Shown here: piece after piece, positions 59,625-62,045 of the stretch | Numbering within the stretch: the stretch's first letter is position 1 | How the letters are laid out: every line of letters begins with the position of its first letter | DNA from: Escherichia coli 042 | GTDB taxonomy: Bacteria; Pseudomonadota; Gammaproteobacteria; Enterobacterales; Enterobacteriaceae | Length of the DNA: 64,000 bases | Strand: one strand, 5' to 3' | NCBI RefSeq assembly: GCF_000027125.1 | Contig: NC_017626.1 | Position numbers: made by a program

Positions 59625-62045
59625 AATTAATGCCTGATGCGACGCTGTCGCGTCTTATCAGGCCTACAAACCGTTACCGACTCGCATCCGGCAATTGTGG
59701 GTTACGATGGCATCGCGATAGCCTGCTTCTCTTCAAGCAGCTTCTCGACTACGCCAGGATCGGCAAGCGTCGAGGTATCGCCCAGGTTGCTGGTATCGCC
59801 CGCCGCAATTTTGCGCAGAATACGGCGCATAATTTTGCCGGAGCGGGTTTTAGGCAGGGAGTCGGTCCAGTGCAGCACGTCTGGCGTCGCCAGCGGGCCA
59901 ATCTCTTTACGCACCCAGTTGCGGACTTCTGCGTACAGTTCTGGTGACGGTTCCTCCCCATGATTAAGCGTGACGTAGGCGTAGATCGCCTGACCTTTAA
60001 TATTGTGCGGAATACCGACGACAGCGGCTTCGGCGATTTTCGGATGCGCCACCAGCGCCGACTCAATCTCCGCCGTTCCCAGACGGTGACCCGAGACGTT
60101 CAGCACGTCGTCCACGCGCCCGGTGATCCAGTAATAGCCATCTTCATCGCGACGCGCGCCGTCGCCGCTGAAATACATATTTTTGAAGGTGGAGAAGTAG
60201 GTCTGCTCAAAACGTTCGTGATCGCCAAACAGCGTACGCGCCTGACCCGGCCAGGAGTCGGTGATCACCAGACTGCCTTCGGTAGCGCCTTCCAGCGGGT
60301 TACCTTCGTTATCGACCAGCGCCGGTTGCACGCCGAAGAACGGACGTGTTGCCGAACCGGCTTTTAGCTCGGTAGCGCCAGGCAGCGGCGTGATCATGAA
60401 ACCGCCAGTTTCGGTCTGCCACCAGGTGTCGACCACCGGGCATTTCTCATTACCGATTTTTTTCCAGTACCACTCCCACGCTTCCGGGTTAATTGGCTCG
60501 CCCACGGAACCGAGAATGCGCAGTGACGAACGGTCGGTGCCTTCAATCGCTTTATCGCCTTCCGCCATCAGCGCGCGAATCGCCGTGGGCGCGGTATAGA
60601 GAATATTGACCTGATGCTTGTCCACCACCTGCGCCATACGGGCAGGCGTCGGCCAGTTCGGTACGCCTTCAAACATCAGCGTGGTCGCGCCGCAGGCCAA
60701 CGGGCCGTACAGCAAATAACTGTGTCCGGTAACCCAACCCACATCAGCGGTGCACCAGTAGATATCGCCCGGATGATAATCAAAGACATATTTAAAGGTC
60801 AGCGCCGCATACACCAGATAACCGCCGGTAGTGTGCAGCACGCCTTTCGGCTTCCCGGTAGAACCGGAGGTGTAGAGAATAAACAGCGGATCTTCGGCGT
60901 TCATCTCTTCCGCCTGGTGCTGATCGCTGGCTTGCTCAATCAGGTCGTGCCACCACAGATCGCGCCCTTCCTGCCAGTCAATTTTCCCGCCAGTACGCTT
61001 CAGTACCACCACATGTTCAATGCTGGTGACGTTCGGGTTTTTCAGCGCGTCATCAACGTTTTTCTTCAGCGGAATACTACGCCCGGCACGCACGCCTTCG
61101 TCGGAAGTGATCACCAGTCGTGAGTTAGAATCGATAATGCGTCCGGCAACGGCTTCCGGCGAGAAGCCGCCGAAAATTACCGAATGCACCGCGCCAATGC
61201 GGGCGCAGGCCAGCATCGCGACCGCGGCTTCCGGCACCATCGGCATATAAATCGCCACCACATCACCTTTTTTAATGCCCAGCTCGAGCAGGGTATTGGC
61301 GAAGCGGCAGACGTCGCGGTGCAGCTCTTTATAGCTGATATGTTTGCTCTGGCTGGCGTCGTCGCCTTCCCAGATGATGGCGGTACGATCGCCGTTTTCT
61401 TGCAGATGGCGGTCAAGGCAGTTTGCCGCCAGATTCAGCGTGCCGTCCTCGTACCATTTAATGGACACATTACCGGGGGCAAAGGAGGTGTTTTTCACCT
61501 TCTGGTAGGGTTTGATCCAGTCGAGAATTTTTCCCTGTTCGCCCCAGAAGGTATCTGGTGCGTTAATAGATTGTTGATACATCGCCTCGTACTGCTGAGG
61601 GTTTATCAGGCAACGGTCTGCGATGTTGGCAGGAATGGTGTGTTTGTGAATTTGACTCATGCTTTTGTTCTCCTTGTAGGATGTTAATAATATGTGGCAT
61701 AAGCGTTAAATGTAGGGGTATTGGCAGTTTTGTTTAGTATTTGGGCGACAGATCACGCAAAAGTAGAATTGTGCAAATAAACGGCAGGGTAATTTTTGAA
61801 GGTCAGCAACAAAAGTTGATTAATTCTTTGAGGAACATGCAGTTATGCATGCTGTTGAAAAAGAGGAAGATACTGACTAACTCTAAAGTGGTATTTTACA
61901 TGCACTTACAATTGATTAAAGACAACATTCACAGTGTGGTTATTTGTTACACATAGGGGCGAGCAATGTCATGACAGTGTAGGTGCGGTTACTGTCGTGA
62001 AAAACAATAAAAACCGCCATTGCAACAATGGCGCAATTCGGATGA

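What the first reader, a model, noticed from the sequence alone, without database searches (positions are those of the whole stretch)
61877..61924. nrfA promoter: FNR and NarL/NarP candidate sites with canonical spacing
An FNR-like site ttgattaaagacaa (centre 61917.5) and a 7-2-7 heptamer pair taactct-aa-agtggta (centre 61884.5) are exactly 33 bp apart, the spacing expected for FNR at -41.5 and NarL/NarP at -74.5, which predicts a transcript start near 61959 and a leader of about 93 nt. The second FNR half-site is degenerate (GACAA versus ATCAA), which may be strain-specific or may mean I mis-assigned the site.
Basis: partly seen in the sequence, partly recalled or inferred. Interest (0 to 1): 0.3.

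Follow-up and report, generated by a model that had tools for sequence, protein, structure and literature searches.

The report
Known E. coli nrfA promoter sites

Summary
The window holds the divergent acs / nrfA intergenic region of E. coli. From -209 to about +88 it is base-for-base identical to K-12 MG1655.

- **Sites:** the NarL/NarP 7-2-7 site TAACTCT-AA-AGTGGTA is at 61878..61893 (centre 61885.5). The FNR site TTGAT-TAAA-GACAA is at 61912..61925 (centre 61918.5). They are 33 bp apart.
- **Transcript start:** eight published anchors from Godfrey et al. 2017 (PMC5434802) all put +1 at window 61960. They are fragment ends at -209, -87, +10 and +130/131, the Fig. S5 span -57..+3, the p14C G at -14, the O157:H7 change at -7, and p+102A in the AGG codon. 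This puts the sites at exactly -41.5 and -74.5.
- **Published FNR site:** the paper's own Fig. S5 underlines TTGAT...GACAA as the FNR site.
- **"Degenerate" half-site:** it is not strain-specific and not a mis-assignment. It is [G/A]ACAA in 21/21 Escherichia, Citrobacter and Salmonella sequences.
- **Leader:** 92 nt here, 93 nt in K-12.

Verdict: observation confirmed, interpretation supported, already known, low interest. Side observations: two conserved hairpins in the nrfA leader, natural p63C-like variants of acsP1, and a non-conserved ytcB ORF.

The parts
59702..61660 (-). acs (acetyl-CoA synthetase) coding sequence, divergent neighbour
   Evidence: 652-aa ORF. It corresponds to b4069 acs in NC_000913.3.
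61751..62089 (+). Equivalent of the published pnrf53 fragment (-209 to +130), which carries everything needed for anaerobic and nitrite induction
   Evidence: The nrfA Up and nrfA Down primers from PMC5434802 Table S2 map to these ends.
61878..61893 (.). NarL/NarP 7-2-7 inverted heptamer site TAACTCT-AA-AGTGGTA, centred at -74.5
   Evidence: Coordinates. Each heptamer matches TACYYMT at 6 of 7 positions. The literature puts the shared NarL/NarP site at -74.5. The site is invariant in 8 E. coli genomes. Its two central bases, left free in the search pattern, are invariant in 21 species sequences.
61893..61898 (-). Probable -10 hexamer (TAAAAT on the - strand) of the weak divergent acsP1 promoter. 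Position -63 is window 61897.
   Evidence: The p63C substitution 'disrupts the acsP1 -10 element'. Position -63 is T61897, the second base of TAAAAT on the - strand. The hexamer assignment itself is my inference.
61912..61925 (.). FNR site TTGAT-TAAA-GACAA, centred at -41.5 (class II position, overlapping the -35 region)
   Evidence: Coordinates. It is underlined as the FNR site in Fig. S5 of PMC5434802. FNR at -41.5 is stated. An FNR ChIP-seq peak is listed for nrfABCDEFG with the site at -41.5. Activity falls from 5119 to 54 units in a delta-fnr strain.
61945..61953 (+). Extended -10 element TGnTACACA (-15 to -7). The Fis I repressor site overlaps the -10.
   Evidence: Fig. S5 underlining. 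The p14C target G is at 61946. The O157:H7 A->T change is at 61953 = -7. The Fis I overlap is stated in the abstract.
61960..61960 (+). pnrf transcription start (+1, C)
   Evidence: All eight published anchors agree: -209, -87, -57..+3, -14, -7, +10, +102 and +130/131. The original 5'-end mapping (Tyson et al. 1994) could not be read here.
61960..62051 (+). 92-nt untranslated nrfA leader with two conserved hairpins (61970..61999 and 62015..62033) and a GGA-containing Shine-Dalgarno region at 62040..62045
   Evidence: RNAalifold and pair counts on 13 distinct leaders. The role of the leader is described as unclear in PMC5434802.
62059..62061 (+). GGA motif of the published CsrA binding site inside nrfA codons 3-4. 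K-12 p+102A corresponds to window 62060.
62052..63488 (+). nrfA (cytochrome c552 nitrite reductase) coding sequence
   Evidence: 478-aa ORF. It corresponds to b4070 in K-12.

Best explanation
The finding is the core of pnrf, the single promoter of the E. coli nrfABCDEFG operon. Under anaerobiosis, dimeric FNR binds TTGAT-TAAA-GACAA (61912..61925) centred at -41.5. From this class II position it recruits RNA polymerase to a promoter with an extended -10 (TGnTACACA, 61945..61953) and no usable -35, so that transcription starts at C61960. FNR alone can give full activity, but IHF bound between the two sites (IHF I) and Fis bound over the -10 (Fis I) hold it down. With nitrite or nitrate, phosphorylated NarL or NarP binds the 7-2-7 site (61878..61893) centred at -74.5 and displaces IHF, so NarL/NarP act as anti-repressors. 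FNR binding also shuts off the weak divergent acsP1 promoter, whose -10 lies between the two sites. Shown here: sequence identity with K-12, exact site positions relative to +1, and conservation across three genera. Taken from the literature on the identical sequence: FNR dependence, nitrite induction, IHF and Fis roles, and in vivo FNR occupancy. Recalled from my own knowledge rather than tested: the precise IHF and Fis site centres and the FNR-RNA polymerase contacts.
For: (1) Window 61661..62051 is identical to K-12 MG1655 except for one C fewer just before the ATG. The 96-nt core is 100% identical in 3416 of 5414 E. coli records and at least 95% identical in the rest. (2) Published coordinates map consistently to +1 = 61960: the nrfA Up primer at -209, E87 at -87, H10 at +10, nrfA Down at +130, the Fig. 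S5 span -57..+3, the p14C G at -14, p+102A as the third base of the AGG codon, and the O157:H7 single change at -7 = 61953. These give site centres of exactly -41.5 and -74.5. (3) PMC5434802 states FNR at -41.5, NarL/NarP at -74.5, IHF displacement and Fis I over the -10, and its Fig. S5 underlines TTGAT/GACAA. (4) Activity falls from 5119 to 54 units in delta-fnr. In vitro, FNR activates pnrf and represses acsP1. (5) An FNR ChIP-seq peak is listed at nrfABCDEFG as class -41.5 with direct activation, and ChIP-chip lists acs/nrfA. (6) Footprint over 21 Escherichia, Citrobacter and Salmonella sequences: 23 of the 26 positions left free by the search pattern inside -82..-35 are invariant, against 0 of 30 immediately upstream. 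(7) The two motifs lay exactly 33 bp apart in 0 of 300 simulated windows.
Against: No experiment was done on this particular strain. The primary 5'-end mapping and footprinting papers (Tyson 1994; Browning 2002, 2005, 2006, 2010) are not held in the library, so +1 rests on a later paper's numbering by the same group. Each motif alone is no better than chance in a 64-kb window. The consensus sigma-70 scanner finds no promoter here, which is expected for an activator-dependent promoter without a -35. The cross-species loci were retrieved with a pattern that fixed the heptamers and TTGAT/CAA, so only the free positions are informative, and the sequences are phylogenetically close.
Confidence: 0.97

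Rival explanations
1. The FNR site is mis-assigned because its right half (GACAA) is degenerate, and the real FNR target lies elsewhere in the acs-nrfA spacer, for example at the second FNR-like match TTGAAGGTCAGCAA (61796..61809).
For: The site matches the TTGAT-N4-ATCAA consensus at only 8 of 10 positions, and such matches are common by chance (52 in the window). A second 2-mismatch match exists in the same spacer.
Against: The authors who characterised the promoter underline exactly TTGAT-TAAA-GACAA as the FNR site. That site's centre is at -41.5 relative to a +1 fixed by eight anchors. The pnrf97 fragment (-87 to +10) excludes the other match, yet it still binds FNR and is FNR-activated in vitro. 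The half-site is [G/A]ACAA in 21 of 21 sequences from three genera.
Confidence: 0.01
2. The strongly conserved -82..-27 block is conserved because it encodes the small protein YtcB (61900..61956) or the acsP1 promoter, not because of pnrf regulation.
For: K-12 annotation carries ytcB (b4821) over exactly this stretch, and the 18-aa ORF is intact in the window. The acsP1 -10 lies between the two sites.
Against: The ytcB start codon is ATA in 12 of 21 sequences, and the stop is lost or moved in several. Position -63 is the base whose change to C kills acsP1. It is naturally C in two Escherichia lineages and A in two Citrobacter. Conservation starts abruptly at the first base of the NarL/NarP site, well upstream of the ORF.
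Confidence: 0.03
3. NarL/NarP at -74.5 work mainly as direct class I activators that contact RNA polymerase alpha-CTD, rather than by displacing IHF.
For: NarL can activate directly from 7-2-7 sites at -77.5, -67.5 and -44.5 at ogt-derived promoters, through alpha-CTD contacts. The -74.5 position is close to these.
Against: The literature on pnrf states that FNR alone is sufficient for maximal induction and that NarL/NarP act by displacing IHF from IHF I. The 18 bp between the two sites, where IHF I lies, are almost invariant across genera, which fits a bound protein there. The primary data (Browning 2002, 2006) could not be read here.
Confidence: 0.08

Closest known systems
E. coli K-12 nrf operon promoter, pnrf (Tyson et al. 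1994; Browning et al. 2002, 2005, 2006; Godfrey et al. 2017, PMC5434802)
   Same: The sequence is identical from -209 to about +88. The FNR site at -41.5, the NarL/NarP 7-2-7 site at -74.5, the extended -10 TGnTACACA, +1 at a C, and the divergent acsP1 are all the same.
   Different: There is one C fewer in the C-run between the Shine-Dalgarno region and the ATG (CCC at 62048..62050 against CCCC in K-12). The leader is therefore 92 nt rather than 93 nt. The published UPEC, EAEC and EPEC fragments, which end at +130 instead of +131, are also one base shorter. The window lacks the O157:H7 -7 A->T improvement of the -10.
E. coli nirB promoter (pnir): FNR at -41.5 with a NarL/NarP 7-2-7 site further upstream, also modulated by IHF and Fis
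   Same: It has the same logic: class II FNR activation suppressed by nucleoid proteins and relieved by NarL/NarP binding upstream. nirBDC-cysG is listed with FNR at -41.5, and NarL remodelling of a nucleoprotein assembly at pnir is cited (reference list).
   Different: The 7-2-7 sequence and its distance from the FNR site differ (-69.5 from my own recollection, not tested here), and it is a different operon. There is no sequence homology beyond the motifs.
Salmonella enterica and Citrobacter nrf promoters
   Same: They have the same NarL/NarP heptamers, the same 18-bp spacer, the same TTGATTAAA[G/A]ACAA FNR site and the same TGnTA.A extended -10.
   Different: The sequence around +1, the upstream region beyond -83 and the leader length differ. 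Salmonella has a stronger core promoter and different CsrA behaviour.

Membership tests
E. coli pnrf (orthologous promoter identity) | Sequence identity with the characterised K-12 pnrf53 fragment, in the same acs / nrfA divergent context | tested here: met
   The alignment is identical except for one C before the ATG. The flanking acs and nrfA genes match. The published primers map to -209, -87, +10 and +130.
Class II FNR-activated promoter | Inverted repeat resembling TTGAT-N4-ATCAA | tested here: met
   TTGAT-TAAA-GACAA matches at 8 of 10 positions. The same bases are marked as the FNR site in Fig. S5 of PMC5434802.
Class II FNR-activated promoter | Site centred near -41.5 relative to the transcript start | tested here: met
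   The centre is 61918.5 with +1 at 61960, which gives -41.5. +1 is taken from published numbering, not re-mapped here.
Class II FNR-activated promoter | Transcription depends on FNR and FNR occupies the site | not testable with these tools
   Literature on the identical K-12 sequence only: 5119 against 54 units in delta-fnr, gel shifts and in vitro transcription, and ChIP-seq and ChIP-chip peaks.
NarL/NarP 7-2-7 operator | Two TACYYMT-like heptamers as an inverted repeat separated by 2 bp | tested here: met
   TAACTCT-AA-AGTGGTA matches at 6 of 7 positions in each heptamer.
NarL/NarP 7-2-7 operator | Located at the characterised position (-74.5), 33 bp upstream of the FNR site | tested here: met
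   The centre is 61885.5, which is -74.5.
NarL/NarP 7-2-7 operator | Nitrite or nitrate induction that depends on NarL/NarP binding | not testable with these tools
   Literature only. All pnrf53 derivatives were induced by nitrite.

The most novel reading that the evidence does not exclude
The parts not already explained in the literature I could read are two. (a) The weak right half-site is fixed as [G/A]ACAA and is never ATCAA in 21 of 21 Escherichia, Citrobacter and Salmonella sequences. This may mean a sub-optimal FNR site is actively maintained, for example to keep the promoter dependent on nucleoid-protein remodelling or because these bases serve a second bound factor. (b) The 92-nt leader, whose role Godfrey et al. 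2017 call unclear, contains two hairpins (61970..61999 and 62015..62033). They are conserved with G-U and compensatory changes that fit only the + strand RNA, so they may form an undescribed cis-regulatory RNA element, possibly one that presents GGA motifs to CsrA or stabilises the mRNA.
Probability: 0.3. Interest if true: 0.25.

Novelty: already known. Interest (0 to 1): 0.05.

Why it matters
It adds no new biology. pnrf is one of the best-dissected complex promoters of E. coli, integrating FNR, NarL/NarP, IHF, Fis, NsrR and CsrA. The result is useful as a positive control, because a reader working from sequence alone recovered the characterised sites and spacing correctly to within one base. 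It also gives exact window coordinates for the promoter elements. The side observations on the leader hairpins and on natural acsP1-inactivating variants touch a point the literature leaves open, but they are modest.

Tried and rejected
- **Promoter scan:** the consensus sigma-70 scan of 61600..62120 found no promoter. This is uninformative for an activator-dependent promoter that lacks a -35.
- **Single-motif statistics:** neither motif alone exceeds chance, so I used pair spacing and conservation instead.
- **Primary papers:** the J Bacteriol papers on pnrf (PMC2897348, PMC1636288) are not held. I therefore could not verify the exact centres of IHF I-III, Fis I-III and the NsrR site, and I left them without coordinates.
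- **Other papers:** the comparative-genomics paper PMC1805755 and the review PMC12285233 give no site sequences. PMC3783194 gives no acs promoter positions.
- **ytcB:** a literature search found nothing.
- **Rfam:** a search of the spacer and leader gave only a chance MicA hit on the wrong strand (E = 0.86, 20.9 bits against a gathering score of 41).
- **Terminator-like call:** I considered the '- strand terminator' at 62033..62015 as a real terminator. I rejected this in favour of a + strand leader hairpin, because 98.8% of cells pair on the + strand RNA against 82.7% on the - strand.
- **-10 hexamer:** the paper's text gives the EHEC -10 as TATACT, which did not fit the sequence. Genomes and the paper's own Fig. 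S5 show TACACT.

Full report
**What is there**

The end of the window carries a 652-aa ORF on the minus strand (59702..61660) and a 478-aa ORF on the plus strand (62052..63488). In E. coli K-12 MG1655 these correspond to acs (b4069) and nrfA (b4070), which are divergent genes separated by a 392-bp spacer.

The window's 391-bp spacer occurs in 5413 of 5426 complete E. coli genomes. It is identical to MG1655 at every position except for one C fewer in the C-run just before the nrfA ATG. This is therefore the acs-nrfA regulatory region of E. coli.

**Check of the observation**

- The 7-2-7 string TAACTCT-AA-AGTGGTA lies at 61878..61893 (centre 61885.5).
- The FNR-like string TTGATTAAAGACAA lies at 61912..61925 (centre 61918.5).
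- The distance between centres is exactly 33 bp.
The strings and the spacing are right.

Taken singly, the motifs are not statistically remarkable:

- The FNR consensus at <=2 mismatches gives 52 matches in the window against 36.4 +/- 6.7 expected.
- The 7-2-7 consensus at <=2 mismatches gives 2 matches against 2.7 expected.

The combination is remarkable. No pair exactly 33 bp apart arose in 300 simulated windows with the same dinucleotide content.

**Placing the transcript start**

I could not read the original mapping paper (Tyson et al. 1994). Godfrey et al. 2017 (PMC5434802), from the same laboratory, gives many numbered landmarks, and I mapped them onto the window:

| Landmark from the paper | Published position | Window position |
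|---|---|---|
| 5' end of pnrf53 (primer nrfA Up) | -209 | 61751 |
| 5' end of pnrf97 (primer E87) | -87 | 61873 |
| 3' end of pnrf97 (primer H10) | +10 | 61969 |
| 3' end of pnrf53 (primer nrfA Down) | +131 in K-12 | 62089 (+130 here) |
| Fig. S5 span | -57..+3 | 61903..61962 |
| p14C target G | -14 | 61946 |
| Single O157:H7 difference (A->T in a real O157:H7 genome) | -7 | 61953 |
| p+102A (third base of Arg codon AGG, conserves the codon) | +102 in K-12 | 62060 |

The +130 end matches the one-base-shorter UPEC, EAEC and EPEC fragments. The p+102A position allows for the extra C in K-12.

All eight landmarks give +1 = C61960. With that start, the FNR-like site is centred at exactly -41.5 and the 7-2-7 site at exactly -74.5. 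These are the positions the literature gives for the single FNR site and the shared NarL/NarP site of pnrf. The leader is 92 nt here and 93 nt in K-12.

**The doubtful half-site**

It is neither.

- Supplementary Fig. S5 of PMC5434802 underlines TTGAT and GACAA as the FNR site of MG1655, and TGTTACACA as the extended -10.
- Fig. S6 shows the same TTGATTAAAGACAA in Salmonella serovars.
- Among eight diverse E. coli genomes, only the most divergent one differs, and it has AACAA.

I then scanned one genome per species for the heptamers and TTGAT-N6-CAA at the same spacing. This returned 20 species representatives of Escherichia, Citrobacter and Salmonella. In the alignment of these with the window:

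- The two half-site positions left free by the pattern read G or A (12 against 9) at -39, and A in all 21 at -38. None has the consensus T.
- 23 of the 26 free positions between -82 and -35 are invariant.
- None of the 30 columns immediately upstream of the NarL/NarP site is invariant.

The conserved block therefore begins exactly where the 7-2-7 site begins. One caveat applies. The loci were selected by a pattern and are closely related, so only the free positions count, and the invariance says 'the whole block is constrained' rather than anything specific to one base.

**How it works**

The sequence shows a promoter with an extended -10 (TGnTACACA, -15 to -7) and no recognisable -35, which is why the consensus promoter scan finds nothing.

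The literature on the identical K-12 sequence supplies the mechanism:

- FNR bound at -41.5 is necessary and, on its own, sufficient for full activity. Activity is 5119 units in wild type and 54 in delta-fnr.
- FNR occupies the site in vivo, by ChIP-seq and ChIP-chip.
- IHF at IHF I and Fis at Fis I (over the -10) suppress FNR-dependent transcription.
- NarL or NarP bound at -74.5 displace IHF and so give nitrite induction.
- FNR simultaneously represses the weak divergent acsP1 promoter.
- CsrA represses translation through a GGA motif in nrfA codons 3-4, at window 62059..62061.

The exact centres of the IHF, Fis and NsrR sites come only from my memory of papers that are not held. I therefore give no coordinates for them.

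**Rivals**

- **A mis-placed FNR site.** This is excluded by the anchors above, by the authors' own figure, and because the -87..+10 fragment is sufficient for FNR binding and activation.
- **Conservation due to the overlapping small ORF ytcB (61900..61956).** This is unlikely. Its ATG is ATA in 12 of 21 sequences and its stop is not conserved.
- **Conservation due to acsP1.** This is also unlikely. Position -63, the base whose change to C inactivates acsP1, is naturally C in two Escherichia lineages and A in two Citrobacter.
- **Direct class I activation by NarL/NarP.** This is conceivable by analogy with ogt, but it is contrary to what is reported for pnrf.

**Comparison with the known, and novelty**

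This is not merely like pnrf. It is pnrf, with a sequence identical to the characterised K-12 fragment apart from the one C before the ATG. The finding is already known and of low interest. Its value is as a correct call by the first-stage reader.

**Things seen in passing**

- The 92-nt leader folds into two hairpins (61970..61999 and 62015..62033). Across 13 distinct leaders, 98.8% of cells are paired, against at most 64% when the partners are slid. Three pairs have compensatory changes, and the many G-U pairs fit only the + strand RNA (98.8% against 82.7% on the - strand).
- No Rfam family matches the leader, and the 2017 paper calls the leader's role unclear.
- The second hairpin is what the scanner reported as a minus-strand terminator.
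- Downstream of acs lies an array of about four 91-nt REP/BIME-like repeat units.

Noticed in passing
window 61970..61999 and 62015..62033 (+): Two hairpins in the nrfA 5' leader are conserved across Escherichia, Citrobacter and Salmonella: 98.8% of cells are paired, 3 pairs have compensatory changes, and many G-U changes pair only on the + strand RNA. No Rfam family matches. The 2017 paper says the role of the conserved leader is unclear. The second hairpin is the '- strand terminator-like' site.
   Followed up: partly
window 61897 (position -63); loci L012, L025, L018, L023: The base whose substitution to C (p63C) inactivates the acsP1 -10 is naturally C in 'E. coli' SCPM-O-B-8794 and Escherichia sp. 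MOD1-EC7003, and A in two Citrobacter species. This suggests that acsP1 is dispensable or not conserved.
   Followed up: partly
window 61900..61956 (+): An intact copy of the K-12 annotated small ORF ytcB (18 aa, MHLQLIKDNIHSVVICYT) lies wholly upstream of pnrf +1 and over the FNR site and -10. Which transcript would carry it is unclear. Its ATG is ATA in 12 of 21 related species, so it is not conserved as an ORF. No paper mentioning ytcB was found.
   Followed up: partly
window 62048..62050: There is a length polymorphism in the C-run between the Shine-Dalgarno GGATGA and the nrfA ATG. The run is CCC here (the one-base-shorter published UPEC, EAEC and EPEC fragments are consistent with the same variant) and CCCC in K-12 and O157:H7. 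Some Citrobacter have one to three extra bases in this stretch. This changes the SD-ATG spacing by one to a few nucleotides.
   Followed up: partly
window 61948..61953: The main text of PMC5434802 gives the EHEC -10 hexamer as TATACT. O157:H7 genomes and the paper's own Fig. S5 show TACACT (K-12 and this window have TACACA). This looks like a typographical slip in the paper and does not affect the mapping.
   Followed up: yes
window 61796..61809 and about 61834..61856: A second 2-mismatch FNR-like match (TTGAAGGTCAGCAA, centre about -157.5) and an ATGCA/TGCAT-rich imperfect palindrome (AACATGCAGTTATGCATGCTGTT) lie upstream in the same spacer. The palindrome might correspond to the upstream NsrR site reported by Browning et al. 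2010, but that paper could not be read.
   Followed up: no
window 59306..59700: About four tandem ~91-nt units, each carrying REP-like sequence (GCCGGATAAGGCGTTTACGCCGCATCCGGC), lie between the yjcH-like ORF and the 3' end of acs. This is an ordinary BIME/REP cluster, and it produces the spurious repetitive ORFs in the ORF list.
   Followed up: partly
window 61921 (position -39); loci L009 and several Citrobacter; L004: The first base of the weak FNR half-site is polymorphic, G in 12 sequences and A in 9 of the 21. The A form (AACAA) is one step closer to the ATCAA consensus. It is found in E. albertii, in the divergent E. coli 14EC007 and in many Citrobacter.
   Followed up: partly
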